Positions 26,590 through 64,000 of a DNA stretch of 64,000 nt are shown here, one piece after another (the first letter of the stretch is position 1; the number at the start of each line of letters is the position of its first letter). The notes beneath the pieces are model-generated. The model was given only the letters and a program-made list of their open reading frames with translations. It was not told where the DNA came from and ran no database searches. Position numbers and translations under genes: made by a program. Location: the IMG/VR virus record IMGVR_UViG_3300028833_003520; one strand, given 5' to 3'. The DNA comes from a virus (Duplodnaviria > Caudoviricetes).

Positions 26590-26592
26590 GAA

Positions 26593-46541: not shown

Positions 46542-46718
46542 ATGAGTCTTGATAAAGCAATACAACACGGTAAGGAGCATAGAAAGCCATACAGACGTGC
46601 TAAGTCTGTTGATAGTCAGTGCAGAAATCACGGTTCTTGTCTTTGGTGTAAAGGCAATAGAACTTATAGGTTTAGGAAAGAAGAAGAGAGGTTAAATCAA
46701 AATGTTGAAGAAGAATGA
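46542..46718 (+). CDS. Small basic Cys/His protein
   Basis: MSLDKAIQHGKEHRKPY...CRNHGSCLWC. Confidence 0.55.
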   Translation: MSLDKAIQHGKEHRKPYRRAKSVDSQCRNHGSCLWCKGNRTYRFRKEEERLNQNVEEE

Positions 46719-48921: not shown

Positions 48922-50742
48922 ATGCTTTTTGCTGAATCTGATAAAAATTATAAGTATGCACAGGAACATTTTCCTTGCTTGAATACTTTTACACAGCAGT
49001 TGAAAGCACCTGGATTTGAAATTCAGAGCCGTGAGAAAGAGATGGACTCCATCGAAGCGGCTCTTAATCGTCCTGAACTTTGTAACGTGTTACTTTTAGG
49101 AGAGCCTGGCTCTGGTAAGACAGCACTTGTGCAGTCTGTAATGATGCACGATACCAAGAGGCTTTATCTTGAAGTTGACCTTTCCAAGATGATTGCAGAT
49201 ACAAATGACGTTAACGAGATGGCTACAAGGCTTAAGTCCTTGTGCGACGAGGTAACGATATTCCGTAAGGAAATGCAGACTGAACTTGTTCTTTTTATGG
49301 ATGAGTTCCATCAGATTATGATGTTGTCTAATGCGGCGGCTGAAGCAATGAAGCCGTTGCTTGCTGATTCAGGCACACGAGGCGTGCGTATCATAGCAGC
49401 CACAACAGAAGCAGAGTTCAGAATGTATATTGCTCCGAACCAGCCGTTGGTGGAGCGTCTGCAGAGAATCAGACTCAAAGAGTTGGATAAGCAGGCAACT
49501 ATCAATGTTCTTAAGAACAGAGCCAAGATATATGGCGTAGAAGACCAAATCACTGAGTATAACAATATATACGGACTTATCTATGAATATACGCAGAGAT
49601 ATATCCCTGCGAACGCTCAGCCTCGTAAATCATTGCTCGTATTCGATGCGATGATTGGTTGGCATAATTCAAAGGCGAGACCTTTGGATAAGGCACTCCT
49701 TGCTGACGTTATTTATGAGTCAGAAGGTGTCAATGTTACTTTTAGAGTAGATGCTACATCAATCAAGAAGGAACTTGACAAGTATGTATTTGCTCAGGAC
49801 TTTGCGACAAGCGTTATTGAGCAAAGGCTTCAGATTTGTGTTGCTGACCTTAATAATAAGTCAAAGCCTATGAGTTCATTCTTATTCACAGGTTCAACTG
49901 GTGTAGGTAAGACTGAGGTTACGAAGCAGTTAGCCCGAATTCTTTTCGGTGATAATGCGAGAACAAGTCTTATCCGTTTTGATATGACAGAATATGCTAC
50001 AGAGGACTCTCTGGAGAGATTCAGAGCAGAACTTACACAGCGTGTTTGGAATAGACCTTATTCTATCGTTCTTTTGGACGAGATTGAGAAGGCGTGTGCT
50101 CCTGTTACACGAGTTCTCTTGCAGGTTTTGGATGATGGCAGACTTATGGATGAGAATAACCGTGAGGTTTCATTCCTTAACTCGTATATTATCCTTACTA
50201 CCAATGCTGGTAATGAGATTTATAAGACCATTGCCCAGTATTCTCCTGATGATACAGGTTCAGGTAAGGAATTCCATAGGTATGAGAAACTCATCAGACA
50301 GTCTATTTCAAGCACGACAGGTGATAATAGATTCCCTCCTGAGTTGCTTGGACGTATCGACTGTATCGTGCCGTTCCAACCTCTTTCAGAGGAAACGAAG
50401 AAGAAGATTGTTAAGCATAAGTTGGAAGAGTTAATCAAGAAGGTTTCTGATATACACAATGTTGCTCTCAATTATGACCAGAGGGTCATACAGTACATTG
50501 TTGAAGATAACCTTGACTCTGACTCTGATGCAGGTGGTGCACGTACTGCAATCGCTAAACTCGAATCTGAGGTTTATACCGAAGTATCAAGAGTTATCAA
50601 CACTTGCCCTGATGCCATCAGATTGAGAATCGTTGTTGACGGTAAGATGATGTGCGAAGACAAGACGCAACTTGAATCGACGGCTTCTATCAGCGTTAAG
50701 GTTGGCAGTGAGACGAGACAAGTTAAGAAGACCTACTATTAA
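48922..50742 (+). CDS. ClpA/ClpB-like double AAA+ ATPase lacking N- and M-domains
   Basis: GEPGSGKT/FMDEFH and GSTGVGKT/LLDEIEKA, RFDMTEY, LLQVLDDGRL, FPPELLGRID. Confidence 0.9.
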   Translation: MLFAESDKNYKYAQEHFPCLNTFTQQLKAPGFEIQSREKEMDSIEAALNRPELCNVLLLGEPGSGKTALVQSVMMHDTKRLYLEVDLSKMIADTNDVNEMATRLKSLCDEVTIFRKEMQTELVLFMDEFHQIMMLSNAAAEAMKPLLADSGTRGVRIIAATTEAEFRMYIAPNQPLVERLQRIRLKELDKQATINVLKNRAKIYGVEDQITEYNNIYGLIYEYTQRYIPANAQPRKSLLVFDAMIGWHNSKARPLDKALLADVIYESEGVNVTFRVDATSIKKELDKYVFAQDFATSVIEQRLQICVADLNNKSKPMSSFLFTGSTGVGKTEVTKQLARILFGDNARTSLIRFDMTEYATEDSLERFRAELTQRVWNRPYSIVLLDEIEKACAPVTRVLLQVLDDGRLMDENNREVSFLNSYIILTTNAGNEIYKTIAQYSPDDTGSGKEFHRYEKLIRQSISSTTGDNRFPPELLGRIDCIVPFQPLSEETKKKIVKHKLEELIKKVSDIHNVALNYDQRVIQYIVEDNLDSDSDAGGARTAIAKLESEVYTEVSRVINTCPDAIRLRIVVDGKMMCEDKTQLESTASISVKVGSETRQVKKTYY

Positions 50743-50811: not shown

Positions 50812-53103
50812 ATGGGTTTCAGAAAGAAAAACGGAAAGCCTTCAAACGGAACACCTGAATCCGCAGACAAGCCTGCTGTTGCAGCAACGCCTGCAGAGTC
50901 TCCCAAGAAGGCGAAGAAAAAGGGTGTCGGTATGGCTTCCCTGTTTACGGAAACCGTACCTGAACAAGTTTTGGATGAACTCAATAGCAACACTCCCTTC
51001 ATCCTCGACATAGATGGAGAGAAGAAGTATATTGCAGTTCAGTTCACAGCCGAGGCTATTGGTGGTCTCGATAAAAAGACTTCAGCGAAGGATGAGGCTA
51101 AAGGACAGTTGGTTCAGCAACTTGATTCGGGTGCTATTTCCGCTTACTTTACGGCTCAGACTTTGGAAGACGAGGAAATTACCTTTATCCCTAATTCTAC
51201 TTCACTGATGAATGTAGAGGAGTTTGGTCTTGTAAGAAATCTTCCTTGGACATTTGTTACCATTGATGGTGACGGTACTATTGAGAAGACTTCGATTAAG
51301 ACAGGCTTTGATGAGGTCAAGGAAATTCTCGAAGGCAAGAAGAGTATTGACGATGTATTCGAAGGTGCTTTTGTAGGAAAGGATATTCCGACAGATGAAG
51401 CACCTGCAGATGAAGTCAAAGAGGAGCCTGAACTCACCGATATCGACTCAATTCCTTCAGAGATTGTTGACGATGTACCCGAAGGTGATTCTCCTGAAGA
51501 TGGTGAGGACGATGAGGTTCCTGCATTTGAAGAGGAACTTCCTGACGTTGGCGGAGATATGCCGTTAGTAGAAGTTCCTGAGTATGACGATGTTCCCGAA
51601 ACATCTGATTATGATGACATAGGTGGTCTTGATGAAGGCGAGGCTCCCGAAGAGGTAGAGGAAACAACTGATATTCCTTATGATGAAGACAGACCTTTCG
51701 ATTATGACGCAAAGTCTGTTAATGAGGAGATTATCAGACGTTTCTATTCAGATGAACTTGGTCTTGAGGTTTCAACAGAGCCGTTTGATGGTCATTATGT
51801 TCACGGTAACAAGTATCTTCCTTTCGAAGAAAATAGACCTGAAGGTTGGCTTAATAACTATCTCAACGAGATGTGTAGAAATGCCAATATTGAGATGAGC
51901 AGAATTCACGCTGAAAATCTTAATAAGATTAGGCAGTATTATCTCCAGACAATGGCGAAGCACTGTGAGGACATTACGAAGGAACTTGATGTTCAGAATA
52001 TGTCCACAACGTATGGTCAGTATAAGCAGAATATCGACCGTGAGAAGGAAGAGGCTATTGCTCATATTGATGATAAGGTTGCACAGAGGAAACTTGAACT
52101 CAATCAGGATTGGGATAGAAAGTTGTCTGAAGTAGCAGAGCAGGGTGCTCAGGATGCTCGTAATCGTTATCGTGAGAGATACGGAAGACAGCACGATGAT
52201 GACCTTACTCATATTGGACCTATCATCAGAGAAGAGATTGAGTCTAATTACACTCTCGATGTACGTCATCTTAATGAAGACCGTAAGGCAGAGGCTCTTA
52301 AGAGACTTGACTATGCGGTAAACGAGACGCTTGCCGAAGTAAATGTTCTTTATGAGAAGTTACTTGCTGAGGAAATCAAGCGTTACAGAGAGTGGGAAGG
52401 CGATATTCGTGACTATCTCGATGACAACCGTAAGAACGATGTTGCCCACGACCAGGCACTTGCCGAGGAACTCGCACAGAAGACTAAGGCAGATAAGTTG
52501 AATGAGGAATGGACAGCCAAGACTGCTGCTATGACAGAGGAGTTCGAGGCAAAGAAGGCATCTCTGCACGCCGACCTTGAGCGTATGGAGAAAGAGCACG
52601 CACTTGCTCTTAAGAAGCAGAACGACGATTGGCAGGAGAAGTTGGATTCTGAGAAGTCTATCGTTGCGTCACAGCGTGAGCAGATTGACGGACTTATTGA
52701 TAAGTATGCGGCTCTTGACGAGACCAAGAAGAAGGAATACGCATCATTTATTAACGAGTTGAAGAACGAGAAGGAAGCATCAGATAGCAAGTACAAGGAT
52801 ATGATGGAGTCTAATAAGAGTTCCAATCGTGTTGCTTTATTCGCTACGATTATCGGTGTTATCTGTGCTCTGGCAATCGGATTCCTTGCAGGTTATTTCG
52901 TATATGCAAAGATGTCTGCAAAGACAGCCGAAGAGCAGGTTATTGCTGAATATCAGGCTCGTATTGACGAGTTGGAGAGAAAGTATAATCTGACCACAGG
53001 TCAGAATGCAACAGATTCAACTGTAACTGTTACACCTGCTCCGACTGGTACTACTGAGACAACTACTGAGACATCAGAAGCAACATCAGAAACAACTAAC
53101 TAA
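50812..53103 (+). CDS. Large acidic coiled-coil protein with a C-terminal TM, putative transfer protein
   Basis: Acidic linker, long coiled coil, TM near the C-terminus; lies between the Clp ATPase and VirD4. Confidence 0.7.
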   Translation: MGFRKKNGKPSNGTPESADKPAVAATPAESPKKAKKKGVGMASLFTETVPEQVLDELNSNTPFILDIDGEKKYIAVQFTAEAIGGLDKKTSAKDEAKGQLVQQLDSGAISAYFTAQTLEDEEITFIPNSTSLMNVEEFGLVRNLPWTFVTIDGDGTIEKTSIKTGFDEVKEILEGKKSIDDVFEGAFVGKDIPTDEAPADEVKEEPELTDIDSIPSEIVDDVPEGDSPEDGEDDEVPAFEEELPDVGGDMPLVEVPEYDDVPETSDYDDIGGLDEGEAPEEVEETTDIPYDEDRPFDYDAKSVNEEIIRRFYSDELGLEVSTEPFDGHYVHGNKYLPFEENRPEGWLNNYLNEMCRNANIEMSRIHAENLNKIRQYYLQTMAKHCEDITKELDVQNMSTTYGQYKQNIDREKEEAIAHIDDKVAQRKLELNQDWDRKLSEVAEQGAQDARNRYRERYGRQHDDDLTHIGPIIREEIESNYTLDVRHLNEDRKAEALKRLDYAVNETLAEVNVLYEKLLAEEIKRYREWEGDIRDYLDDNRKNDVAHDQALAEELAQKTKADKLNEEWTAKTAAMTEEFEAKKASLHADLERMEKEHALALKKQNDDWQEKLDSEKSIVASQREQIDGLIDKYAALDETKKKEYASFINELKNEKEASDSKYKDMMESNKSSNRVALFATIIGVICALAIGFLAGYFVYAKMSAKTAEEQVIAEYQARIDELERKYNLTTGQNATDSTVTVTPAPTGTTETTTETSEATSETTN

Positions 53104-53202: not shown

Positions 53203-56200
53203 GTGGCAAAGCGAAATTGGGATTTAGTTCGTAAACAGCAGAACGCTGATAAGTTGCAATATCGTGATGTATATGAAGACCAGCAGATGGAACGAAGCAA
53301 GTTGCCTGCAAAGCAGACAGCGACGGCTCGTACCATATTTGCTATCGTAGTTGCTCTTATGGCTGCAGGTGCAGCGTATGCGATTGCGTGTGTCTTCGGT
53401 TCATTGTTTAGCGGTTTAGGGGATATAGGAAGTACAGATACAGGTTCAGGGGGACAGGGTACTGTCATAGAACAGCCTTCGGAAACCGCTTCATCAACAG
53501 GTGTCAGAATCGAGAGTGGCACTGTTATTAAGGATTCCGTTGTTGTTATCAGTACAACGACAGGTGAGACATTAGATACTTGGGTTTATACGAACCTTGA
53601 TAACGGTGACGTAAGGTATATCTGTGATGCTCATCCTGGTTATTCTTTTGCAACAGAGTATGAAATCGCAGATGGTTACAAAAATGGCGTATGGTATTTA
53701 GATGAAGCCGCACAGCAGAGTGCTACATCAGTTTATTGGGATTACCATACGACGTGGATGACACTTTATCGTGGTGACCCGAACGGGGAACACACGGAAA
53801 TAGATACTTGGGAAAATACAGGTGGTGTTTATGGTGAGCAGTACACTTGCTCTAATCATCCGTCTTTCAGTTTTAGCGACCAAGAATCCGTTGAGGCTCA
53901 TTATGATTCCGAAGGTAATTGGTCAGATACAGTAGTTTCACAAGGTAATGCAGGACAGGAAAGTTCTACAGATAGCGGTGATATGCCGTCTATATCCTTT
54001 GGTGTGGACTGGACTCCTTCATTCGGTAAGATTTTATTTGCAATAGCCGTTGGTGGTATTGTTTTTGCTCTTTTACACACGGCTATGATGCGTAACTTGA
54101 AAGCACAGAATATGCTTTCAGATACCTCTGATATTAACCAATATCAGAACGACCAGCATATTGCTCTCCCTGAAGAAATTCAGGAGAAGTTTGACTGGTT
54201 TCCCGATGTTGGTGCGACCTCGGATGTACAATTCTCGTCAATGATTTCGCATATGGCTCTTTCTAACAAGGGTATTAAGAAAGTCAAGTTCTCGAAGCGT
54301 GCAGATAAGGATATCTACGACGCAGACGGAGATATTGAATACTATAAGGGCGAAGTTCTTCTTGATGATAATGGACAGCCGATTCAAACAGAGGTTCCGA
54401 TGTTTGATGAGCAGTTTATGGAAGACCTTTTTACTGCTTCAGGTGCTCCCCCGAAGGATAAAACGATTCGTAAGTATTACGATGCGACGAAGATTAAGTA
54501 TAATCCTGACGGAAGCAATCGAGATAAACTTGGCAAGTATAACACAGTTGCAGACCTTATCAATGCCGATTGGGAATTGCCTTATTATGAACCTCAAAGA
54601 CCTGCAGGTGCATATATCGTAGATACTGCTCCTGTAAATACGATGGTCTTGGCTATTACCCGTGCAGGTAAAGGTCAGACTGTAATCGAGCCTACGCTCG
54701 ATATGTGGATGCGTGAGAGAAGACCTAACAATATGGTTATAAATGACCCGAAGGGTGAGTTGCTCGTTAAGAACTATGTTAGAGCAACTGTTAGAGGTTT
54801 CCAAGTTGTTCAGTTTAACCTTATCAACGCTATGAAAACCGACATTTATAATCCGTTAGGAATGGCAGCAGAAGCCGCACGAGAAGGAGACTTCACCAAA
54901 TGTGCAATGTACGTCGAGAACATCGCAGATGTATTCTTCCCTCTTGACGGTGGTGATGACCCTGTGTGGCCTAATGCTGCGAACAACGCATTTAAGAGAG
55001 CATCTTATGGTCTTATCGACTATTATCTTGAGGAAGAAAAGGAGTTACGCCTTTTCGCCGAAAGAACGAAGATGGACGAAAAGATACTTGAGGCTAAATT
55101 GGACGAGATGTGGGGTAAAGTTACGCTTTACAACACTTATCAGTTGTTCGTTCAGTTGACTTCGAAGAAGTTAAAGAACCCTTCTGTTGAATTCGCAAAG
55201 AAGGCAAAAGAGGGTGAATATGATAATCTTTCTGATGAGGATTATGATATCGAACTTAATAAGGTTGAGAGACAGTCTTTACTTTGGGAAGACAAGCCTG
55301 AGTGTGACCTGTTGACCTTGTACTTCAATGCAACAGATGCGTTGCCGAGAAACTCAATGAGAACTCTCGTTGCAAACGCAAACAATGCGTTGAAGGCGAT
55401 GGCTGGTGCTGAGAAGATGATGGCATCCGTTTACGGTATTGCTATCACGGCTATGTCGTTCTTCACAGACCCGACGATTTCAACACTGACATCAGGCACA
55501 CCTTCGCAGAATGTTGACCTTGCAGGTCTTTCATTCCCTCGAAGATTAGGCGTAAGATTTAACTCAGACTTCGTGCATAACTATCATCTGATTGGTATGC
55601 AGGCAAAATGGATGAGTTACGAGGACGATAAGTTTACGAAGGAACTCGGTAAAGACTTTTATCACGAAGACCTTATTACAAGAGAAGGTTGGGCAAAGTA
55701 TTACTTCAAGGGCAAGTACCCTAATGATGTTGCTTATGTTAAGTTATCTATCGTTAATCCGAAGACGGAATTGACAATCAGAACATTCTACTTCCAGTTT
55801 AAGAAGAACTATCAGACTTCATTGGACGGACGTAAGTACGTGCTTGACCCTGTACTCAATGAGAAGATAGTTAAGAATGGTATTCTGACAGAGTTGAGAC
55901 CGTTCAGACAGGAGACGAAGGATGGTAAGCAGGTATTAGTACCGCTTGCTATGGGTGAAAAGCCTGATGCGAACACAGTTTATAAGAAAGGTAAGACGAC
56001 TTTTGCTCAGGATAAGATTATCAATATCACTGGCGACTCCACGAGGGGACAGGTTCAGACCAATGCTATTATCAGAACGATGGCTCGTTATGCAGAAAAG
56101 CCGAAGATGGTATTCTTGGTTACACCTCCTCACTTGATGAAGTATGCGAAGTTGATTCTTATTCTTATCAAGCAGTTGGTTGACTTGAACTTCGACCAGT

Positions 56201-57579
56201 CTTATATGACGAAATCCAATCAGAAGCCTCTCTATAAGACGAGATTTATGTTGGATGAGTTAGGTAACCTTCAGTCCGAAGGACACGGTATTTCAGGCTT
56301 TGAAACGATGCTTTCTATCGGTCTTGGTCAGGAACAGCAGTTTACTCTTATCTTGCAGACATTACAGCAGTTGAGAGACGTTTATGGAGACTCTGTTGAT
56401 AAAATCGTTCAGGGTAACACATCTAACATTGTGTTCCTTAAATCAACGGATGACTCAATGCTTGATACTCTGCAGAAAATGTCTGGTACAACGCATAAGT
56501 CTTTTACTGATTCAAAGACAGTAACAAGGGATATGCAGGAGATTTTCCAAGGTATGAGTGCTAACGAAGGTAAGGCATCTTATACGATGACTACTAAGGA
56601 AGTGCCTGTTATTTCGTACAACGATATGGCGTTCATTTCTGAGCGTAATAGTATTGTGTTCCGTGCAGGTGATGCACCGATTTGGAACAGAAACGAGACT
56701 ATCCTTCCGATGTCTTGGAGACTTTTCAAGAATACTATTACACAGCCTGGTAAGGAATATACCTTGCAGACGATACCGACACTTTCTTCGGCTATCGACT
56801 TCGATGTACGTAAGAATCAGCCTGACTTCCAGAAGATGCTTGATAAGCGTATGGCTCAAGCAAATAAGGCTCCTGATGCAAAGAGTTTGTATCAGATGTC
56901 TTATGATTTCACTGATTATCAGATGGAACAGCAGGACCCTGATATTCTCGCAGATGAAATTATGGATATCATTAACACATATATCCGTGAGGCAAATACT
57001 GACGAGGAAGAAGAGGAAGTATTTGACTATGATTTCGGCGAAGACGATATGTGGGGTTTTGCAGAAGATGATAGTTCAACACAGGAAATGGTCAGTGCTA
57101 TCGCTAATGGACAGTCAATCCCTGTTAATGGCGTAGATAAGACCTTTGTAGGTGTTGATAAAACTGCTTCAGAGAAGCGTTTCGCAGGCGGTCTCTTATC
57201 ACCTGATATGCTCGTCAATGCGTCAGGTATAAACCATAGTCTTGATAAAGACATCATTAAGGTTTACACAGATATTAAAGGCGACTTATGGCGTGATACA
57301 GCGTACTTTGTTGTACGCAATGGAGACCTTTATGGTATTAACAATGAGCCTTATATCATTAAGGCAGATAACTCCGAAGCCCTTGAGGTATTGAATAATG
57401 CCGCCAAGGATGAAGATAGTAACGTCTATGGTGACGAGGATATTGATATATCTGAAGTCCATTCATTCGGCACTTATACAGTAACGGATGGTTTCTATCG
57501 CTTCCTTGCAGGGCAGAAGAGGTGGTCTTTCGCAAACGGTAAGTTTGAAGAGGCTATGTATCGACAATTAGATTCGTAA
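53203..57579 (+). CDS. virD4: Type IV coupling protein VirD4/TraG with an enlarged inter-TM loop
   Basis: Two TMs, Walker A AITRAGKG, INDPKGE, YNPL, Walker B FMLDELGN, LQTLQQLRDVYG. Confidence 0.9.
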   Translation: MAKRNWDLVRKQQNADKLQYRDVYEDQQMERSKLPAKQTATARTIFAIVVALMAAGAAYAIACVFGSLFSGLGDIGSTDTGSGGQGTVIEQPSETASSTGVRIESGTVIKDSVVVISTTTGETLDTWVYTNLDNGDVRYICDAHPGYSFATEYEIADGYKNGVWYLDEAAQQSATSVYWDYHTTWMTLYRGDPNGEHTEIDTWENTGGVYGEQYTCSNHPSFSFSDQESVEAHYDSEGNWSDTVVSQGNAGQESSTDSGDMPSISFGVDWTPSFGKILFAIAVGGIVFALLHTAMMRNLKAQNMLSDTSDINQYQNDQHIALPEEIQEKFDWFPDVGATSDVQFSSMISHMALSNKGIKKVKFSKRADKDIYDADGDIEYYKGEVLLDDNGQPIQTEVPMFDEQFMEDLFTASGAPPKDKTIRKYYDATKIKYNPDGSNRDKLGKYNTVADLINADWELPYYEPQRPAGAYIVDTAPVNTMVLAITRAGKGQTVIEPTLDMWMRERRPNNMVINDPKGELLVKNYVRATVRGFQVVQFNLINAMKTDIYNPLGMAAEAAREGDFTKCAMYVENIADVFFPLDGGDDPVWPNAANNAFKRASYGLIDYYLEEEKELRLFAERTKMDEKILEAKLDEMWGKVTLYNTYQLFVQLTSKKLKNPSVEFAKKAKEGEYDNLSDEDYDIELNKVERQSLLWEDKPECDLLTLYFNATDALPRNSMRTLVANANNALKAMAGAEKMMASVYGIAITAMSFFTDPTISTLTSGTPSQNVDLAGLSFPRRLGVRFNSDFVHNYHLIGMQAKWMSYEDDKFTKELGKDFYHEDLITREGWAKYYFKGKYPNDVAYVKLSIVNPKTELTIRTFYFQFKKNYQTSLDGRKYVLDPVLNEKIVKNGILTELRPFRQETKDGKQVLVPLAMGEKPDANTVYKKGKTTFAQDKIINITGDSTRGQVQTNAIIRTMARYAEKPKMVFLVTPPHLMKYAKLILILIKQLVDLNFDQSYMTKSNQKPLYKTRFMLDELGNLQSEGHGISGFETMLSIGLGQEQQFTLILQTLQQLRDVYGDSVDKIVQGNTSNIVFLKSTDDSMLDTLQKMSGTTHKSFTDSKTVTRDMQEIFQGMSANEGKASYTMTTKEVPVISYNDMAFISERNSIVFRAGDAPIWNRNETILPMSWRLFKNTITQPGKEYTLQTIPTLSSAIDFDVRKNQPDFQKMLDKRMAQANKAPDAKSLYQMSYDFTDYQMEQQDPDILADEIMDIINTYIREANTDEEEEEVFDYDFGEDDMWGFAEDDSSTQEMVSAIANGQSIPVNGVDKTFVGVDKTASEKRFAGGLLSPDMLVNASGINHSLDKDIIKVYTDIKGDLWRDTAYFVVRNGDLYGINNEPYIIKADNSEALEVLNNAAKDEDSNVYGDEDIDISEVHSFGTYTVTDGFYRFLAGQKRWSFANGKFEEAMYRQLDS

Positions 57580-58089: not shown

Positions 58090-58118
58090 TTGACAATCTC
58101 CATATATGGCGTTATACT
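58090..58118 (+). promoter_or_regulatory. Class A promoter upstream of the Lys/Ala-rich gene and the RNAP gene
   Basis: TTGACA-atctCCATATATGGcgt-TATACT. Confidence 0.8.
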
Positions 58119-58185: not shown

Positions 58186-58812
58186 ATGGCTAAGGAACTT
58201 AAAAAGCAGTCTGGTTCTAAAGAACAGTCTGTGAGCCGTGAGACGAAGAAAGCCCTTGAAAAGCAGGCAGCATTAGTCGAGAAGCAGGCAAAAGACCGTG
58301 AAAAGCAGGTTGCTAAAGAGAAGGCAAAGGGTGTTGGTAAGGCAGGTATTGGTGTACTCAAGATTGCCACAGGTAACCCTATTCTTGCTATAGGCGGTGT
58401 TGCAAATCTCGCAAATGGTGCAGGTAAGACTGCGAAGGCTGAGAAGAATGTCGAGAAGAAGAATGATAAGGCTCTTGCAAAGCAGGAGAAGAAACTTCAG
58501 AAGGCACTCGATAAGGACCTTCAGGGTAAGACTGAAGCAGAGAAGGCTGCAATCAAGGCTGATTTTGAGGCAGAATCTCAGAAGGTTAAGGAAACTCATA
58601 ATCTTGAGCAGTCCACAAATCTCCAGACAACAACTGTTGCTGATATTAAGGCTCAGGAGAAGACGGTCAAGGCGAAGGAAAAGGCTAAAGCCGAGGTTGA
58701 TAAAGCAGAGAAGCGTGACACTCGTGTCAAGAAGGCAGAGAATAAACTCAATGTCAAGCAGATTGAAGCCAATGCTCAGGCACAGGCACAGTCTGACGGT
58801 TACGGTTACTAA
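58186..58812 (+). CDS. Lys/Ala-rich protein with a Gly-rich hydrophobic segment
   Basis: ATG 58186 after AAAGGAG; ends RDTRVKKAENKL...SDGYGY. Confidence 0.7.
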   Translation: MAKELKKQSGSKEQSVSRETKKALEKQAALVEKQAKDREKQVAKEKAKGVGKAGIGVLKIATGNPILAIGGVANLANGAGKTAKAEKNVEKKNDKALAKQEKKLQKALDKDLQGKTEAEKAAIKADFEAESQKVKETHNLEQSTNLQTTTVADIKAQEKTVKAKEKAKAEVDKAEKRDTRVKKAENKLNVKQIEANAQAQAQSDGYGY

Positions 58813-58887: not shown

Positions 58888-61800
58888 ATGGCTTATAGCG
58901 TTGCTTATAAAGATTGGTTATTTAACTGCGGTAATCGTAGTGAATATATCATCTATCGTGCAATAGAAGAATTCAGTAGGCAGAGAGAAGAACGGGGCGA
59001 TAGACCCGTTTCTCTTAGTGAGGGAGTCGCTTTGCGTCAGCAGATTCTTAAGAATCTTGAAAGCAATCCCGAAATCAATAGTTATGTTTCTGATGCATAC
59101 GATATAGGTTTGAAGTCACTTTCAAACCGTATTCAGATGAATCCTATCTTGATGTCAATTCAAGCAGAGGGTTCATTTGCGAAGATTTTCGGTGGAAAGT
59201 CTTATGAGAATGTATCGAAGGAACAGTTAGATAGCATTATCGTGACACAGGAAAACAAAGCAAAAGATAGACGAGAATCTTTTATTGAGTCTATCAATGA
59301 GGTTTTGCCTGGCATCGAACTTAATGAAGAAAAGTTCAATAACTTAATTACGACTTATACGAATGCGGTAGTAAGTGTTAGGAACAATGGTTCATATTCT
59401 TATGAGCCTGCGGTGCCTTTGTCACCGTATTGTCCTGCATTTACGACTCGTAGTTTTACTTATAAAAATCCTGCGTTGTCTTTGATGAAGAAGTCAGATA
59501 AGCAAACAGCAGATGGCAATTATGCCGATTTTGTACGCATTTATCATCCGACAAGAGATGATATCGAGGACCAGTACGACGATTTCATTCGTTTCTATAA
59601 GGCGGAGTATGCAACTTTTGGTGAGAATACTAAAGGTCGTGGCGATAGTGCCAAGACCAATATTATTAAGACCGATGTTCCTACTTTCTACACGAATGAA
59701 GATGATTTCTATCTGAATGGTTTGAGAAAATACTTGACAGAAGAAGATGCAGCGAAGGTTATTAAGCATTGTAATCGTTTCGTAGATAGAACAGGCACAC
59801 CTTATAAGCGTGCCAATATGAAGAAAAGTATGGAATTGCTCCAGCGTATCGCTGAGGCTGGTTACGACTATACTATAGTACCGAAAGCAGGCGGTCAGGT
59901 TGATTGCCGTGTTTCCGTGTTGGGTTCTAATTACGATATAAGTATGATACCTCAACCAAACCAGTCCTTTGCGTATAACTTCGGTAGAGTATTTTGTCGT
60001 GAGAGTGGTGTTTCCTATAACCTGAATACACAGAATAAGTCTCCTGAAAAGGGTTACAAATACGAACCCTACGAAGCAAGTGTAACAGATGCTATGAATC
60101 TGTTGAAGTTTGCTATGGGAGAACCTGTTACTGTTGATACAAAGAATAATGTACCTTTAGGTAAGCACCGTTTGATTTCGTTCAACACTCCGAAGGGAAC
60201 AGTATATCGTAATAACGCATATTATAATAAGGGTAATGAGCAGATAAAGAACTTTACTGCTTACTATGGTCGTTCTTCTGACGGTGTAAACGTATTCTTG
60301 AAGGCTAATACTTCTGAGGTTACACCGAAGACGGCTCGTTTTGGTAGGAAAGGCGTTTCAAAGGAAGAAGACGCTGAACTTCATCTTAAAGAGTGGATTG
60401 AGTCTGCAAGACAGACATACACTGACGAGATGGATTTGGAGAATCTTATTCGTGAAGCAAGAGACCATCAGAATGACCCTGATTATGAGTTTAGATTCTC
60501 AGGTGTACCTGAAATCTATGCTATGCAGAAGAATTACTGGAATGTTCTCACAGGCAAAGAGCACGCTCTTGCTAAAGTAGGTCAAGATGACGATGAGTTT
60601 GATGAAGTTGGTGTTGAGAGAGCATATTATGAAGGCTCTCCTGAAGACAAAGTGCGTCAGCATTTTGCAGATTCCATTCATCACGATATCGGCACTTTTG
60701 AGCCTGATGCAAATGGTAAGAGGTATAGCATATATGGTCTTACCAATTATGCTGTAACTGACTTTAACTCAACTCGTTTCAGATTATCTGTTGTAGCAGC
60801 AACTAATCTGTTAGGCTTTAAGCCTGATGAGTTACAAGATACAGATGCTCAAGGCGATAGCGTAAAGAATATGCTTATCCGTTATGATGAAAAGACGGCA
60901 CAGCCTATTTTCCATCACGAGAGCAAATTCGTTCGTAATATGGGTTCCGTTATTAAGGACACTCTTCAGCAGAGTGGTATCGTAATTGAGGATGACGATA
61001 TTACGATTGACGATAACGGTATCGTGCAGTACAAGGGTAAAAAGGTCATTAACGGAGAATTCCGTCGTGACCCGAAGGCTAAGCGATATGGCACAGTTAG
61101 TATCGAAGATGGCTTGGATAAGCCTGAAGAAGTTGTAGGTCATATCGGTCAGATTTTTGCTCCTGAAGGCAAGTACAACACAGTTACAACGAAGTTTGCA
61201 GGCACAAAGAACTATATGTTCGTGCCTGGATATACAGCGAAGATATTGCCACAGAAAGATGGCGAGAATTTGCCTTATGAGGCAAGAACTCGTCTGTTGG
61301 GTTATGAGCAGTTGATGAGTCAGCGAATCAGGTCTCAGTTGCGTAGTGACCTCTTTATGACCATAGATAACTATGATGGTGCAGCATTAGGTATGAACAC
61401 ATCTCTGAATAAGGTTTATACGAACCTTTATGATGTGCGTCATCCTGTGGACTATATCGAGCGTTCAAGGGAAGAGGGAATGGATGACAGTTTCCTTGAG
61501 GCTGTTCTTGCTACAGAGGCACGCAGAGTCAGATATGATAGTGTCTATAAAGAACAGGCGACACTTAATGCTTATTATCAGGCATATACTCATAAGAGTA
61601 CGCTTATTGATGATAGAAATGTCAACCCTCTCACTCTGACAGGCTTTAGAAATATGGCTATTATGACAGAGGAAGGCGATGGGTATTTTGACCCTGATGC
61701 TACTTCCACTGGTATGAACCAAGGTGTTACAAGATACCTTGTCGAGAGTGCAGAAGTATTACCTGACGGTAGTATCAAGCGTGGCGACTTGGATGATAAG

Positions 61801-64000
61801 ACACCTCTGTGTAAGCATCCAGTTATGCATTGGGCAGATTACGTTCCGTTTGACCGTCGCCAGATGGTCTTCAACAACGCAATTAAGGCTCAGTGCATTA
61901 CAGGAAAGGTAAAGACTGCACAGATGACCTTTGGTGGTTGGAACTTTGACGATGGTTTCATCGTTACAAAGCAGTTTGCCGAGACATATAAGGTGCGTAA
62001 TAAAGATGACGTTCTTCGAGATATCGTTGTCGGAGATAAGATTCTCGATAAGAACGGTAACAAGGGTGTTATCTCACTTGTTATCGACCCTGATATGTCT
62101 ATGGAAGAAGCCCGTGAGCAGGGACTTGAAAATGTTCTTGCGATGGTAAAGGCAAACCCTGATATTCAGGTTTATGGTGCTCCATATCCTGCAGTATCTC
62201 GTTTTAACGGTGGTACAGCAAGAGAACTTATGGAGAATCCCTCAGATTTGCATATGCCAGACGGTACTATCAAAGAAGGATGTGTCGGCGAAGCCGAATT
62301 CATCGTTACACATATGGCTGTTGACAAGAAGTCACAGATTTATGACGACCAAGCCTTCGAAGAAGGTAAGGGTAGTAGAGCCTCTGCACAACTTGCTTGG
62401 GCATTGAATGCGAGAGGTGCGGAAGCAATGATGAGAGAGTTCTATTCTGATAATGATAGAGCCTTCACGACAATGCGTGAGTATTTCATCACTTGCGGCT
62501 ATGACTTATCCGAGACAGGTCAGATTATGCGTGGTTATACACCACACCCTGGCGAGGTAAGGAATGTCTTTGCTATGGAAGAAATCGAGAATATGCCGAA
62601 AGAGGGTTTAACTCAGTCGGCTATTCGTTCCAAGGTCTTCGATATGACAAGACAGATTCGTCATTCGGGTGGTTTTATGGAACTTCCGTTCCCGTTGACT
62701 TTCCCGAACGGTACTACTATTCCTCAAGTTCAGATTGAACACGATGTGATAACTGAAGCCGACAAGACTGACGTAAATTACACGAAGGATAGTTGGACAG
62801 TTAACCGTAATGGCAAGGAAATCACATATCATCGTAATCGGGAACTTTTGGATAACGGTGGCTCCAAGTTGGTTGATAGGAAGATTTCTGATGCAAAGAA
62901 GCCTATTTATGCATTGCCTGTAATGAGTTCTCATTTGAGAGTTGACCAGCCTTATCAGGATGGTACAACGATGCTTAACGATTGTACTGAATTCTATCAG
63001 TACATTTACAGAGCAGGTTTGACATATCTTGAAGCAGAGCGTAAAGGTGACAAAGCAGCAATGACAAAGGCTCGTAATGATGCTCAGCGTTTCTTTGATA
63101 GAATCACAGGTGATATTGTCGAGAATAGATTTGAAGACAATAAGCATAACTATTTCAAAGAAGGTTTGATGAGCAACAGAATGCCGAAGTCTTCTAACCC
63201 TGTTTGGACTGCTGACCCTCGACTTGATATTGAGGAAGTCGGTGTTTCGCCAGAAATGGCAGAAAGACTCGAACTTGAAGAGGGTGAAACAGTCTTAACA
63301 TTCCGTAACCCTGTTCTGCGTCCTGAAGGTGTTAGTGCAAAGAAAGTCAAAATCCTTAAGGGTATTGTAGGTATTGCAATTAACCCTGTAATGGATAAGG
63401 GTTATGATGGTGACTTCGATGGTGATACAGTACCTTTGAAGAAATTGCTCACACCTGAAGCAAAGGAAGAGGCTGAAAGACTTTACTCTGTAAAGGCAAC
63501 ACTTTTGGACTATGGTTCAAAAGACGAGGATGGCAACTATGGTCTCTTAATGAATCACGGTCTTGATTTGAAGACTGCTGAATATAATCGTCCTGAACTC
63601 AAAGACCAGTACGATGAGATTACGAAGCGTGTTAATGGATTTGAGAAGGATTATGCAAGCGGAAAACTTTCTTATGAGGAAGTTGATAAGATGCGTGAGC
63701 AGGCTGTTAAGGATTTGAACGATTATGTTCATAAGTGCTTTGAAGGCGGTGTTGGTGAAGCCATTATCAGTTACAAGGATATTTCGTCACACGTTGCTTC
63801 GTGTGAGGAGATTGTTAAATCGGGAGCAAAGGGAAGTTACAGTAAACTTGATGACTATTGTAACTATCTTGGAGCGTCCTACGAATATAATGTGGATGAG
63901 AATGGCGAGAAGACCTCTATTAACCTCGATACTGTTGAAGATTTGGAGACACCTTTTGGTGGCGATAAGGAATCTGCAAGACAGGCATCTATGGCTACGC
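58888..64000 (+). CDS. Single-chain (beta/beta'-fused) two-barrel DNA-dependent RNA polymerase, 3' truncated by the window
   Basis: Frame open from ATG 58888 (SD AAGGGG); beta-like GGWNFDDG, VGDKILDKNGNKGVIS, AVSRFNGG; beta'-like LPVMSSHLR, FRNPVL, NPVMDKGYDGDFDGD (63406-26), SGAKGS. Confidence 0.9.
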   Translation, partial: MAYSVAYKDWLFNCGNRSEYIIYRAIEEFSRQREERGDRPVSLSEGVALRQQILKNLESNPEINSYVSDAYDIGLKSLSNRIQMNPILMSIQAEGSFAKIFGGKSYENVSKEQLDSIIVTQENKAKDRRESFIESINEVLPGIELNEEKFNNLITTYTNAVVSVRNNGSYSYEPAVPLSPYCPAFTTRSFTYKNPALSLMKKSDKQTADGNYADFVRIYHPTRDDIEDQYDDFIRFYKAEYATFGENTKGRGDSAKTNIIKTDVPTFYTNEDDFYLNGLRKYLTEEDAAKVIKHCNRFVDRTGTPYKRANMKKSMELLQRIAEAGYDYTIVPKAGGQVDCRVSVLGSNYDISMIPQPNQSFAYNFGRVFCRESGVSYNLNTQNKSPEKGYKYEPYEASVTDAMNLLKFAMGEPVTVDTKNNVPLGKHRLISFNTPKGTVYRNNAYYNKGNEQIKNFTAYYGRSSDGVNVFLKANTSEVTPKTARFGRKGVSKEEDAELHLKEWIESARQTYTDEMDLENLIREARDHQNDPDYEFRFSGVPEIYAMQKNYWNVLTGKEHALAKVGQDDDEFDEVGVERAYYEGSPEDKVRQHFADSIHHDIGTFEPDANGKRYSIYGLTNYAVTDFNSTRFRLSVVAATNLLGFKPDELQDTDAQGDSVKNMLIRYDEKTAQPIFHHESKFVRNMGSVIKDTLQQSGIVIEDDDITIDDNGIVQYKGKKVINGEFRRDPKAKRYGTVSIEDGLDKPEEVVGHIGQIFAPEGKYNTVTTKFAGTKNYMFVPGYTAKILPQKDGENLPYEARTRLLGYEQLMSQRIRSQLRSDLFMTIDNYDGAALGMNTSLNKVYTNLYDVRHPVDYIERSREEGMDDSFLEAVLATEARRVRYDSVYKEQATLNAYYQAYTHKSTLIDDRNVNPLTLTGFRNMAIMTEEGDGYFDPDATSTGMNQGVTRYLVESAEVLPDGSIKRGDLDDKTPLCKHPVMHWADYVPFDRRQMVFNNAIKAQCITGKVKTAQMTFGGWNFDDGFIVTKQFAETYKVRNKDDVLRDIVVGDKILDKNGNKGVISLVIDPDMSMEEAREQGLENVLAMVKANPDIQVYGAPYPAVSRFNGGTARELMENPSDLHMPDGTIKEGCVGEAEFIVTHMAVDKKSQIYDDQAFEEGKGSRASAQLAWALNARGAEAMMREFYSDNDRAFTTMREYFITCGYDLSETGQIMRGYTPHPGEVRNVFAMEEIENMPKEGLTQSAIRSKVFDMTRQIRHSGGFMELPFPLTFPNGTTIPQVQIEHDVITEADKTDVNYTKDSWTVNRNGKEITYHRNRELLDNGGSKLVDRKISDAKKPIYALPVMSSHLRVDQPYQDGTTMLNDCTEFYQYIYRAGLTYLEAERKGDKAAMTKARNDAQRFFDRITGDIVENRFEDNKHNYFKEGLMSNRMPKSSNPVWTADPRLDIEEVGVSPEMAERLELEEGETVLTFRNPVLRPEGVSAKKVKILKGIVGIAINPVMDKGYDGDFDGDTVPLKKLLTPEAKEEAERLYSVKATLLDYGSKDEDGNYGLLMNHGLDLKTAEYNRPELKDQYDEITKRVNGFEKDYASGKLSYEEVDKMREQAVKDLNDYVHKCFEGGVGEAIISYKDISSHVASCEEIVKSGAKGSYSKLDDYCNYLGASYEYNVDENGEKTSINLDTVEDLETPFGGDKESARQASMAT

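What the first reader, a model, noticed from the sequence alone, without database searches (positions are those of the whole stretch)
58888..64000. Element-encoded single-polypeptide beta/beta' RNA polymerase, missed by the ORF track
Seen: frame +1 appears open from ATG 58888 to the window end (at least 1704 aa). I translated several stretches, and the track lists no frame +1 ORF here, which fits the lack of a stop. The motifs fall in the order of bacterial beta then beta'. Beta-like: GYFDPDATSTGMNQG (cf. GRVCPIETPEGPNIG), GGWNFDDG (cf. GYNFED), VGDKILDKNGNKGVIS (cf. GDKMAGRHGNKGVIS), SRFNGG, HMAVDKK, RASAQLAWAL (cf. RFGEMEVWAL). Beta'-like: LPVMSSHLR, FKEGLMSNRM, RNPVL (cf. RAPTL), YDGDFDGD (catalytic NADFDGD; residues about 1507-1513), SGAKGS. 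It is compact and divergent from host RpoB/RpoC (the flap region is absent), with about 900 unassigned N-terminal residues. Knowledge: fused minimal RNAPs occur on selfish elements (YonO, NCgl1702-like). Inference: this element may run host-independent transcription.
Basis: partly seen in the sequence, partly recalled or inferred. Interest (0 to 1): 0.92.

Follow-up and report, generated by a model that had tools for sequence, protein, structure and literature searches.

The report
Conjugation-module single-chain RNA polymerase
The open frame is real and encodes most of a 2136-residue single-chain RNA polymerase (a cut-down beta fused to a near-complete beta') that sits next to the DNA-transfer coupling protein in hundreds of Gram-positive mobile elements, and it may be exported with the DNA.

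Summary
A 99%-identical contig gives the whole gene, 2136 aa.

It is a two-barrel RNA polymerase:
- All eight universal catalytic residues are invariant in 60 relatives.
- Pfam Rpb1_2 passes its cut-off.
- AlphaFold models match beta (Z 13.6-14.3) and then beta' (Z 16).
- The flap is absent, and a bridge helix and a trigger-loop-like hairpin are present.
- Residues 678-936 look like beta's N-terminal domain. Residues 1-677 match nothing.

It is not YonO-like. By architecture it fits the "NCgl1702-like" predicted polymerases, but I could not obtain that sequence to test this.

The family has about 350-500 clusters in Actinomycetota and Bacillota. In 77 of 85 loci the gene lies directly after a giant VirD4-type coupling protein, in the order ClpB-like ATPase, membrane protein, coupling protein, polymerase, unknown.

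Family members end in a basic/Pro, then acidic, then aromatic-Gly tail. The window's relaxase and at least six unrelated proteins carry similar tails.

The window's operons, including the polymerase's own, have host sigma-A-type promoters. General host-independent transcription is therefore not supported. My best reading, which is inferred, is that the polymerase is a conjugation cargo acting on incoming single-stranded DNA.

The scan noted similar polymerases in conjugation modules of other genomes.

The parts
58888..64000 (+). First 1704 codons of the 2136-codon single-chain two-barrel RNA polymerase gene. The last 432 codons lie beyond the window and are seen in L001:798-7208.
58888..60918 (+). 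aa 1-677: family-specific N-terminal region. It is conserved across the family and confidently modelled, but has no structural or Pfam match.
   Evidence: A2 conservation. Model pLDDT 85.2. No match in PDB, BFVD or Atlas. Weak ESM-feature lead to the Rpb2 lobe, score 0.83.
60919..61695 (+). aa 678-936: region resembling beta1/protrusion, the N-terminal part of the second-largest RNAP subunit.
   Evidence: VIA-align: 8qma_A Z 7.5, 6j9e_C Z 6.5, 3mlq_A Z 5.9, 4kbj_A Z 5.3. Seven of the nine best rows are beta/Rpb2 N-terminal parts, collinear with the next module.
61696..62562 (+). aa 937-1225: beta-like fork region and flap-less double-psi barrel with C-terminal beta elements.
   Evidence: VIA-align: 6j9e_C Z 13.6 (rmsd 2.7, 224 aa), 4c2m_B Z 13.8, 7ogp_C Z 14.3. 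Pfam Rpb2_6 weak, E 0.008, but above cut-off in relatives such as P0088.
61948..61953 (+). D1021-D1022 in GGWNFDDG: the acidic pair of the beta barrel, in the position of the second-metal ligands.
   Evidence: Invariant in 60 sequences. Equivalent to Rpb2 E836/D837 as listed in PMC2919709.
62038..62064 (+). K1051 to K1059 in GDKILDKNGNKG: the two catalytic lysines of the beta barrel.
   Evidence: D1050, K1051, N1058, K1059 and G1060 are invariant.
62509..64000 (+). aa 1208-1704: beta'-like module (clamp, lid/rudder region, catalytic barrel, funnel). It runs on to about aa 1914 outside the window, where the bridge helix and trigger-loop hairpin lie.
   Evidence: Profile against PDB: beta' 233-744, E 5e-11. 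Foldseek beta' chains E 1e-14. VIA-align Z 16.3-12.8 over 320-526 residues.
63304..63312 (+). R1473-N-P1475 (RNPVL): the switch-2 Arg and Pro that are universal in two-barrel RNAPs.
   Evidence: R and P invariant. Listed as universal in PMC2919709.
63412..63426 (+). D1509-F-D1511-G-D1513: the catalytic Mg-binding aspartate triad.
   Evidence: Invariant. Pfam RNA_pol_Rpb1_2 E 1.2e-8, 35.9 bits against a cut-off of 25.3.
58090..58118 (+). Sigma-A-type promoter of the polymerase operon (TTGACA-17 nt-TATACT), with the palindrome CCATATATGG (58100-58109) in the spacer.
58186..58812 (+). First gene of the operon: a 208-aa Lys/Ala/Glu-rich protein ending in ..SDGYGY. It is conserved upstream of the polymerase only in the closest relatives.
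53203..57579 (+). Giant VirD4/TraG-type coupling protein (1458 aa), directly upstream of the polymerase operon. A terminator follows at 57606-57637.
   Evidence: Pfam T4SS-DNA_transf E 3.8e-20 and TraG-D_C. NCBIfam conju_CD1115 below cut-off. Present upstream in 77 of 85 loci. 52-82% identical across phyla. Terminator.
50812..53103 (+). 763-aa protein of unknown family, conserved in the module. Most relatives end in a hydrophobic membrane anchor.
48922..50742 (+). ClpB/ClpV/ClpA-like ATPase with two AAA+ modules and no N or M domain. It is the first gene of the conserved module.
46702..48504 (+). 600-aa paralogue of the coupling protein with the Walker A lysine lost.
   Evidence: BLASTP against the coupling protein, E 9e-22. 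AGKGQT in the coupling protein aligns with SAGIAD here.
8089..10365 (+). MobL relaxase. Its C-terminal tail (..GRRTGRNVPDV..QRGE) resembles the shared tail.
   Evidence: Pfam MobL E 1.7e-62. Tail.
22114..28163 (+). Five consecutive unrelated proteins with R[RK][LM]P 19-20 residues from the C-terminus. The first four end in xG[EG]. A sixth such protein is at 6185-7213, with RKLP 26 residues from the end.
   Evidence: background 0.01 per 45 residues

Best explanation
The ORF encodes an active single-chain two-barrel RNA polymerase.

Domain order:
- A family-specific N-terminal region, aa 1-677.
- A reduced beta: a beta1-like part, the fork, and a flap-less barrel carrying the two lysines and the acidic pair.
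- A near-complete beta': clamp, DFDGD barrel, bridge helix and trigger-loop hairpin.
- A small C-terminal beta-sandwich.
- A disordered tail.

This much is shown by sequence, profile and model.

The gene is a fixed component of a transfer module of Gram-positive mobile elements, in the order ClpB-like unfoldase, membrane protein, giant VirD4-type coupling protein, polymerase, unknown 600-aa protein. This is shown by synteny.

Inferred mechanism:
1. The polymerase is made in the donor from a repressible host-type promoter.
2. It is recognised through its basic/Pro, acidic, aromatic-Gly C-terminal tail. The relaxase and a set of unrelated element proteins carry similar tails.
3. It is unfolded by the ClpB-like ATPase and passed by the coupling protein into the recipient together with the single DNA strand.
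4. In the recipient it makes RNA on the incoming single strand before host machinery can use it. That RNA could be the first messages, or primers for complementary-strand synthesis.

This would be the conjugative counterpart of the RNA polymerases that some phages inject with their DNA.
For: Polymerase identity:
- Pfam Rpb1_2 is above its cut-off.
- A profile of 60 relatives hits beta'/Rpb1 chains at E 5e-11 over beta' 233-744.
- The model has pLDDT 82.9 and pTM 0.78. Foldseek finds beta' at E 1e-14. VIA-align gives beta'/Rpb1 Z 16.3-12.8 and beta/Rpb2 Z 13.6-14.3.
- D1021/D1022, K1051, K1059, R1473, P1475, D1509, D1511 and D1513 are invariant, as is T1744-Q..LQ.K-H1752 in the hairpin of model helices 797-816/818-836.
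- Codon changes against L001 are 97 synonymous to 15 non-synonymous.

Link to conjugation:
- The window carries a MobL relaxase, a VirD4-type coupling protein, a RecD2 helicase and a cell-wall hydrolase.
- In 85 loci from Actinomycetota and Bacillota, the coupling protein is directly upstream in 77. The 763-aa protein is present in 70, the ClpB-like ATPase in 56 (limited by flank length) and the downstream 625-aa protein in 75, all on one strand and in one order.

Tail:
- Among 186 non-redundant family tails, R[RK]x0-3P lies at -32..-16 in 50, against 0 in three control windows.
- [DEGNS][FYLMH][GEQS] lies in the last 7 residues in 135, against 3-14 in controls.
- The tail is also on the downstream protein, but not on the ClpB-like ATPase, the 763-aa protein or the coupling protein.
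- In the window, six unrelated proteins carry R[RK][LM]P at -19..-26, and the relaxase, the canonical type IV substrate, carries a similar tail.
- The same CCATATATGG-spacer promoter heads the polymerase operon and operons of tailed proteins.

Precedents:
- Phage RNA polymerases injected with the DNA, such as P23-45 gp96 (bioRxiv 10.1101/2022.12.01.518664).
- Early expression from single-stranded promoters in plasmid leading regions (PMC11541004, PMC9849209).
Against: - No experiment and no direct computation shows export.
- The tail of the copy closest to the window gene (P0002..GRRTIETPDETPTKDVEGKIP) is a degenerate version of the motif, and many family tails lack the RRxP part.
- In the distant Staphylococcus plasmids the tail is not evident on other proteins.
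- No VirB4-type ATPase or channel genes were identified in the window or in the loci examined, so the route of export is undefined.
- A 2136-residue cargo would be unusually large for a type IV system.
- I did not find single-strand promoter hairpins in this window. GNNCA-loop hairpins number 2, against 0.9 expected.
- Template preference and initiation mode are unknown.
Confidence: 0.45

Rival explanations
1. Donor-side element transcriptase. The polymerase stays in the cell that carries the element and transcribes a subset of element genes from its own promoters, independently of host RNA polymerase, as YonO does for SPbeta late genes.
For: - It has a complete catalytic core with bridge helix and trigger loop.
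- YonO is a precedent for a single-chain enzyme transcribing late genes of a mobile element (PMC5467207).
- The large conserved N-terminal region could supply promoter recognition.
- The element is very large, so a dedicated transcription programme is plausible.
Against: - The operons inspected in the window use consensus sigma-A-type promoters (TTGACA-17-TATAAT, or extended -10) with operator palindromes. These are the operons at 1890, 5428, about 22183, 26658, 44585, 48922 and 58186. The list includes the polymerase's own operon and the one that starts with the ClpB-like gene of the transfer module.
- No alternative promoter class emerged from a k-mer survey of 32 intergenic regions.
- This idea does not explain the invariant position next to the coupling protein across two phyla.
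- It does not explain the conserved disordered tail.
Confidence: 0.27
2. DNA-processing or priming enzyme that is not exported. The polymerase works at the donor transfer apparatus. For example, it could make the primer for replacement-strand synthesis, or open or mark the origin of transfer by transcription. Alternatively it acts only as a primase.
For: - It shows tight synteny with the coupling protein and lies on the same element as the relaxase.
- Single-strand origins of rolling-circle and conjugative elements are primed by RNA polymerase (general knowledge, not tested here).
- The element also carries helicases.
Against: - The element already has a D5-type primase-helicase at 36651-38387.
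- A trigger loop, bridge helix and clamp suggest a processive transcriptase rather than a primase.
- The shared C-terminal tail is left unexplained.
Confidence: 0.18
3. Catalytically dead scaffold. An ex-polymerase kept for a structural or DNA-binding role in the transfer complex.
For: - The beta module is strongly reduced and the flap is lost.
- Most of the protein outside the core is family-specific.
Against: - All eight universal catalytic residues, plus the trigger-loop His, are invariant in 60 sequences that are only 36-66% identical overall.
- Codon changes show purifying selection.
Confidence: 0.04

Closest known systems
NCgl1702-like predicted RNA polymerases of mobile elements (Corynebacterium glutamicum NCgl1702, 2169 aa; Iyer, Koonin and Aravind 2003; Ruprich-Robert and Thuriaux 2010, PMC2919709; Iyer et al. 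2021, PMC7824862)
   Same: - A single chain with beta then beta'.
- Similar size: 2136 aa here, 2169 aa for NCgl1702.
- No SBHM 'flap' insert in the beta barrel.
- Carried by mobile elements of Gram-positive bacteria.
- Known only from sequence analysis and never assayed.
   Different: - Direct similarity to NCgl1702 could not be tested, because the sequence was not obtainable with these tools.
- In 2010 NCgl1702 was described as an orphan with only about 40 conserved residues. This family has at least 350 clusters.
- This family has a recognisable beta1-like part, a bridge helix and a trigger loop.
- The papers I could read do not mention a fixed place in a coupling-protein module.
YonO of Bacillus prophage SPbeta (single-chain two-barrel RNAP; PMC5467207)
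   Same: - A single polypeptide with both barrels.
- Encoded by a mobile element.
- No sigma-like partner is evident.
   Different: - No detectable sequence relation: BLASTP finds nothing and hhalign probability is 0.1. tblastn against 50,697 phage records, which include SPbeta, gave no hit.
- YonO is 839 aa, lacks trigger-loop homology and, per PMC2919709, the fifth carboxylate.
- This protein is 2136 aa and has both, and it is much closer to cellular beta'.
Cellular multisubunit RNA polymerase beta and beta' (RpoB/RpoC)
   Same: - The catalytic barrels, the acidic pair, the two lysines, the DFDGD triad and the switch-2 R-x-P.
- SGAKGS followed by a bridge helix, a trigger-loop hairpin with a His, and the clamp and funnel.
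   Different: - The two subunits are fused in one chain.
- The flap and most beta insertions are missing: 250 residues cover beta 589-1333.
- No alpha or omega partners are evident.
- There are 677 extra N-terminal residues and a disordered C-terminal tail.
- Identity in structural alignments is only 10-23%.
Phage RNA polymerases delivered with the DNA: crAss-like phi14:2 gp66 (PDB 6VR4), Thermus phage P23-45 gp96 tape-measure-fused RNAP (PDB 8H2M/8H2N), N4 virion RNAP
   Same: - A large single-chain polymerase encoded by a mobile element.
- In my reading it travels with the DNA to start expression in a naive cell.
- gp66 and gp96 are also two-barrel enzymes: VIA-align Z 7.3 and 10.9, and a phmmer hit to 8h2n at E 0.0012.
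   Different: - No phage context: there are no phage hits at all.
- Delivery here would be through a conjugation coupling protein, not a virion.
- Similarity to these enzymes is lower than to cellular beta'.
- Export is not shown.
Conjugative primases transferred to recipients (Sog of ColIb-P9, TraC of RP4) and single-strand promoters (Frpo) of plasmid leading regions (PMC11541004, PMC9849209)
   Same: They meet the same need: making RNA on the incoming single strand for priming or early expression. The primase examples are from my own knowledge. Frpo is cited.
   Different: - Those primases are DnaG/TOPRIM-type enzymes in Gram-negative plasmids.
- Frpo recruits host RNA polymerase.
- Here the element would bring a two-barrel polymerase of its own.

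Membership tests
Two-barrel (double-psi beta-barrel) RNA polymerase superfamily | The eight universally invariant active-site residues: three Asp of DxDxD, one Asp of the second barrel, two Lys, and Arg and Pro of switch 2 (PMC2919709) | tested here: met
   D1509, D1511, D1513, D1022 (with D1021), K1051, K1059, R1473 and P1475 are all invariant in 60 relatives.
Two-barrel (double-psi beta-barrel) RNA polymerase superfamily | Two double-psi beta-barrel folds in the order second-largest subunit then largest subunit | tested here: met
   In the AlphaFold model (pLDDT 82.9), residues 1-255 match beta/Rpb2 at Z 13.6-14.3 and residues 272-978 match beta'/Rpb1 at Z 12.8-16.3. Isolated DPBB domains match at Z 9-10.
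Canonical multisubunit-type core (as opposed to the RdRP/YonO type) | Bridge helix and trigger loop after the SGA[KR]G motif | tested here: met
   The structural alignment to beta' runs to model residue about 978. Long helices follow SGAKGS. The helical hairpin 797-816/818-836 carries invariant T-Q..L-Q.K-H. This part lies beyond the window and is seen in L001. Assigning the helices to named elements is my inference.
Canonical multisubunit-type core | SBHM 'flap' inserted in the beta barrel | tested here: not met
   Only 32 residues lie between GGWNFDDG (1016) and GDK (1050). 250 model residues span beta 589-1333 with 224 aligned.
YonO family | Detectable sequence similarity to YonO | tested here: not met
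   BLASTP best E 0.53 on an irrelevant stretch. hhalign of the 60-sequence profile against YonO gives probability 0.1. No tblastn hit in the phage collection that holds SPbeta.
[quoted passage not shown] | A beta::beta' fusion of about 2100-2200 aa without the SBHM insert, on a mobile element | tested here: met
   2136 aa, beta then beta', flap absent, on a conjugative-type element. The family description is taken from PMC2919709 and PMC7824862.
[quoted passage not shown] | Significant sequence similarity to NCgl1702 itself | not testable with these tools
   No named C. glutamicum sequence could be retrieved. The genome scan listed only its best 80 loci, none from Corynebacterium. The clusters of similar length carry no names. 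The 2003 and 2012 papers are not held.
Type IV secretion (coupling-protein) substrates | A C-terminal, charged, unstructured signal shared with the relaxase | tested here: inconclusive
   A conserved basic/Pro, acidic, aromatic-Gly tail is enriched in the family. It is present on the window relaxase and on six other proteins and absent from the machinery proteins. Nothing shows that it acts as a signal.
Type IV secretion (coupling-protein) substrates | Coupling-protein-dependent transfer into a recipient cell | not testable with these tools
   This needs a translocation assay.
crAss-like / phage virion RNAPs | Phage genomic context and similarity to gp66-type enzymes | tested here: not met
   No protein or DNA match in 50,697 phage records. 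The context is a relaxase and coupling protein. Structural similarity to 6vr4_B reflects only the shared barrels, at Z 7.3.

The most novel reading that the evidence does not exclude
A widespread Gram-positive conjugation system sends its own RNA polymerase into the recipient together with the DNA, along with a set of proteins marked by the same C-terminal tail. A VirD4-type coupling protein and a ClpB-like unfoldase carry out the export. The polymerase reads the incoming single strand, so the element starts expression or priming without depending on the new host's transcription machinery. This would be a conjugative equivalent of phage virion RNA polymerases. It would also define a new secretion signal.
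Probability: 0.35. Interest if true: 0.9.

Novelty: new variant of a known kind. Interest (0 to 1): 0.72.

Why it matters
Single-chain relatives of the cellular RNA polymerase are rare. Only YonO and a few phage enzymes have been studied.

This family keeps far more of the cellular core than YonO does: clamp, bridge helix, trigger loop and part of beta. It does so in one chain without the flap, which makes it a natural minimal model of the multisubunit enzyme.

Its fixed place beside the coupling protein in hundreds of elements of two phyla says that a polymerase is part of the transfer module. Text-book accounts of conjugation do not include this, and I found no paper describing it in the searchable library.

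If the polymerase is exported, two things would follow:
- It would help explain how very large elements establish themselves across distant hosts.
- It would give a testable secretion signal for Gram-positive type IV systems, which is an open question.

Relatives sit on Staphylococcus and Lactococcus plasmids, where they are annotated as hypothetical proteins. The family therefore also matters for annotating plasmids of medical and dairy interest.

Tried and rejected
- **Phage origin.** I first suspected a crAss-like virion RNAP. tblastn and megablast against the phage collection gave nothing, and the context is a relaxase and coupling protein.
- **Whole-genome extension.** No genome is held for this window. 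I used a 99%-identical public contig instead.
- **Complex prediction.** I submitted the coupling protein (aa 325-1240) with the last 70 residues of the polymerase. The result was no verdict, which is neither support nor evidence against.
- **NCgl1702 sequence or original papers.** PMC151600, its DOI and PMC3769190 are not held. Cluster look-ups of ten relatives of similar length returned no names.
- **N-terminal 677 residues.** There was no convincing match in PDB by Foldseek, in PDB by VIA-align (Z at most 5.6, scattered), in BFVD or in the ESM Atlas. A language-model lead to the Rpb2 lobe domain scored 0.83, below the level that means anything. The region was searched as part of a 936-residue model, so a known fold is not excluded.
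- **Single-strand promoter hairpins.** This window has 2, against 0.9 expected, and neither is upstream of a gene.
- **A second promoter class.** Recurring 10-mers in 32 intergenic regions turned out to be operator palindromes inside or next to sigma-A-type promoters, plus one iteron-like array.
- **Literature.** Searches combining two-barrel or double-psi RNA polymerase with conjugation found no relevant paper. The library lacks most subscription journals, so this is weak evidence of novelty.
Full report
**1. Observation**

Frame +1 is open from ATG 58888 to the last base of the window, giving 1704 aa. The catalytic YDGDFDGD is at residues 1506-1513. The start codon has a Shine-Dalgarno sequence.

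A public contig from another sample (L001) carries the same gene at 99% amino-acid identity as an intact ORF of 2136 aa. The window therefore holds the first four fifths of the gene. Between the two copies there are 97 synonymous and 15 non-synonymous codon differences, which indicates purifying selection.

**2. What the protein is**

Sequence evidence:
- Pfam finds RNA_pol_Rpb1_2 above its curated cut-off at aa 1463-1534.
- Pfam finds a weak Rpb2_6 match at aa 1042-1067. This reaches the cut-off in some relatives.
- A profile of 60 relatives hits bacterial, archaeal and eukaryotic largest subunits in the PDB at up to E 5e-11, covering beta' residues 233-744.

Structural evidence, from an AlphaFold model of residues 937-2136 (pLDDT 82.9, pTM 0.78):
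- Foldseek matches bacterial beta' chains at E about 1e-14.
- In an exhaustive structural search, model residues 272-978 align with Rpb1/beta'/A190 at Z 12.8-16.3.
- Model residues 1-255 align with beta/Rpb2-type subunits. Xanthomonas beta gives Z 13.6 (rmsd 2.7, 224 residues), Pol I A135 gives 13.8 and the phiKZ non-virion RNAP gives 14.3.

Conservation:
- The eight residues that Ruprich-Robert and Thuriaux list as universal in two-barrel polymerases (PMC2919709) are all invariant in the family. They are D1509/D1511/D1513, D1022 (with D1021), K1051, K1059, R1473 and P1475.
- After SGAKGS come long helices, then a helical hairpin carrying invariant T-Q..L-Q.K-H. I read these as the bridge helix and trigger loop. 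They lie just beyond the window.

Other features:
- The flap is absent. 32 residues separate the two beta-barrel motifs, and 250 residues cover what takes beta 745 residues.
- A second model, of residues 1-936, has pLDDT 85.2 and pTM 0.83. It places residues 678-936 on the N-terminal beta1/protrusion part of beta. Seven of the nine best rows are such chains, at Z 5.0-7.5, and they are collinear with the next module.
- Residues 1-677 are conserved in the family but match nothing in PDB, BFVD or the Atlas.
- The chain ends with a small beta-sandwich and a disordered tail.

**3. Family and distribution**

- A word-indexed search found more than 347 relatives of 1800-2500 aa.
- An exhaustive search of 1.84 billion cluster representatives found 350 with E at most 1e-30 and 494 with E at most 1e-3.
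- In reference genomes the family is in Actinomycetota: Streptomyces, Arthrobacter, Pseudarthrobacter, Kribbella, Microbacterium, Nocardiopsis and others.
- It is also in Bacillota: Clostridia, Lachnospiraceae, Oscillospiraceae and Ruminococcus MAGs.
- It occurs on plasmids of Streptomyces, Gordonia, Rhodococcus, Staphylococcus and Lactococcus, always annotated as 'hypothetical protein'.
- NCBIfam has no model for it.
- There is no match in 50,697 phage records.

**4. Context**

The window belongs to a large conjugative-type element. I identified these genes:
- a MobL relaxase (8089-10365)
- a RecD2 helicase
- a D5-type primase-helicase
- HNH nucleases
- a cell-wall hydrolase
- a ClpB/ClpV-like double AAA+ ATPase (48922-50742)
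- a 1458-aa VirD4/TraG-type coupling protein (53203-57579), which ends 1.3 kb before the polymerase gene

I searched 85 loci with the window proteins. The coupling protein lies directly upstream of the polymerase in 77. Of the eight without it, six are contigs with too little upstream sequence. The 763-aa protein is present in 70 loci, the ClpB-like ATPase in 56 (limited by the 10-kb flank) and a 600-aa unknown protein downstream in 75. All are on one strand and in one order (examples).

The coupling protein is 52-82% identical across the two phyla. The polymerase is therefore a core gene of a conserved transfer module.

**5. The tail**

Earlier notes of this scan on the same genome pointed to a shared C-terminal tag, and I tested this.
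- In the window, six unrelated proteins have R[RK][LM]P 19-26 residues from the end, followed by an acidic stretch. Four end in xG[EG] and a fifth in ..GDFGNS. The background rate is 0.01 per 45 residues.
- The relaxase ends ..GRRTGRNVPDV..QRGE.
- Across 186 non-redundant polymerase tails, R[RK]x0-3P occurs at -32..-16 in 50, against 0 in three control windows.
- An aromatic or hydrophobic residue followed by Gly, Glu or Gln lies in the last seven residues in 135 tails, against 3-14 in controls.
- The tails run basic, then Pro-rich, then acidic.
- Examples are ..ARRVPNVPEAGDSDGHGGLGE in Bacillota and ..RRPVYTPSIEIDQPQGDDDYGMGY in Streptomyces.
- The downstream 600-aa protein has the same kind of tail. 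The ClpB-like ATPase, the membrane protein and the coupling protein do not.
- The copy nearest the window gene has a degenerate version..GRRTIETPDETPTKDVEGKIP.

The pattern fits a recognition signal for cargo rather than for machinery, but its function is inferred.

**6. Promoters**

The polymerase operon starts at a consensus sigma-A-type promoter (58090-58118) with the palindrome CCATATATGG in its spacer. It follows a strong terminator after the coupling-protein gene.

The same promoter-plus-palindrome occurs five times in the window. With one mismatch allowed there are 8 matches, against 1.5 expected. It heads operons that encode tailed proteins.

Other operons, including the one starting with the ClpB-like gene, have extended -10 promoters with other palindromes. 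I found no non-host promoter class. Host RNA polymerase evidently transcribes these genes in the donor.

**7. Mechanism**

Shown:
- The protein is an intact, selected, catalytically complete two-barrel polymerase.
- It is fixed in a coupling-protein module.
- Family members carry a conserved disordered tail. Similar tails are on the window's relaxase and other element proteins.
- It is co-regulated with tailed proteins from a host-type promoter.

Inferred: it is cargo. The ClpB-like ATPase would unfold it, and the coupling protein would pass it to the recipient. There it would make RNA on the entering single strand, either as early messages or as primers.

Precedents are phage polymerases delivered with the DNA, such as P23-45 gp96, and single-strand promoters of plasmid leading regions. 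Conjugative primases that travel to recipients are a further precedent, from my own knowledge.

I give this reading 0.45. The rivals are:
- a donor-side transcriptase for a gene subset I did not see (0.27)
- a non-exported priming or DNA-processing role at the transfer apparatus (0.18)
- a dead scaffold (0.04)

**8. Comparison with what is known**

The enzyme works like a pared-down cellular RNA polymerase in one chain.

It is not a YonO relative. No sequence or profile similarity was found, and YonO lacks the trigger loop.

[quoted passage not shown] It also fits NCgl1702 as described in 2010: a 2169-aa beta::beta' fusion, then thought to be an orphan. I could not test similarity to NCgl1702 itself.

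I found no paper that links such a polymerase to conjugation, but the library is incomplete.

Other agents of this scan noted a two-barrel polymerase inside a conjugation operon of Acidobacteria, and the same kind of gene next to a coupling protein in another genome. I did not check those notes.

**9. Verdict**

The gene is real and is a polymerase. The family is at best known as a prediction. The association with the transfer module, and the shared tail, are the new and interesting parts.

Noticed in passing
window 6185-7213, 22114-28163, 8089-10365: At least six unrelated proteins carry R[RK][LM]P 19-26 residues from the C-terminus, followed by an acidic stretch; four end in xG[EG] and a fifth in ..GDFGNS. 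The MobL relaxase has a looser version. Looser acidic ..GG/..GE or ..GYGY endings also occur on 1890-2987, 5428-6183, 44585-45121 and 58186-58812. This is a candidate secretion or recognition tag, also noted by earlier readers of this genome.
   Followed up: partly
window 5365, 22124, 26603, 44375, 58100: Five exact copies of the palindrome CCATATATGG. Each sits in the 17-nt spacer of a TTGAC(A)...TATAgT promoter with a TG extension. This looks like one repressor-controlled regulon that includes the polymerase operon.
   Followed up: partly
window 1800-1856, 45640-45651, 48812-48889; 4110, 28270, 31906: There are two further operator-like palindrome classes. CTCATAAATGAG lies just after extended -10 boxes, in two copies before gene 1890 and two before the ClpB-like gene. 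TGATATATGAG lies before three other operons.
   Followed up: no
window 43930-44300: A dense array of about a dozen TTCTATAC(A) repeats in both orientations in a gene-free stretch. It looks like iterons, so it may be a replication origin or partition site. It lies just downstream of the small-RNA-like cassettes that another reader noted at 41990-43063.
   Followed up: no
window 57813-57831 and 57854-57872: A 19-nt direct repeat, CTAATATGCAAGATATTGC, lies in the 500-nt gap between the coupling-protein terminator and the polymerase-operon promoter. The second copy is part of an inverted repeat (AATATGCAA-GATA-TTGCATATT). It is possibly a regulator site.
   Followed up: no
window 46702-48504: A 600-aa paralogue of the coupling protein aligns to both halves of its ATPase domain but has lost the Walker A Gly-Lys (AGKGQT becomes SAGIAD). 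It may be an inactive adaptor.
   Followed up: partly
L004 4663-9786 and other actinobacterial loci (e.g. L016, L029, L044): Coupling proteins come in about 1350-aa and about 1700-aa forms. The long form in L004 has a weak LAGLIDADG_3 hit, which suggests an intein inserted in the ATPase.
   Followed up: no
window 12661-13533 and 18066-19259: Two HNH endonuclease genes have nearly identical C-terminal ends (..EVDHK.P.S.GG....NLWTLC..CN.GKSN.YID) but different N-terminal parts.
   Followed up: no
window 32409-33320: A 303-aa protein ends in a striking Asp/Tyr/Trp/Gly repeat (..DYDDYDWDGGWDSDDWDGGYDSGYDYDSGYDWGSDW).
   Followed up: no
L005/L087 (Staphylococcus aureus plasmid NZ_CP150776.1, 55.5 kb): This complete plasmid is typed 'non-mobilizable'. 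It nevertheless carries MobL, the ClpB-like ATPase, the giant coupling protein, the polymerase homologue (1787 aa), a topoisomerase and a tail-lysozyme-type hydrolase, with no annotated VirB4. The plasmid family may be transfer-proficient by an unrecognised system.
   Followed up: no
window 1-64000: GC skew is strongly positive (+0.1 to +0.3) over almost the whole window, and nearly all genes are on the + strand. The only dip is at the minus-strand block 36000-42000.
   Followed up: no
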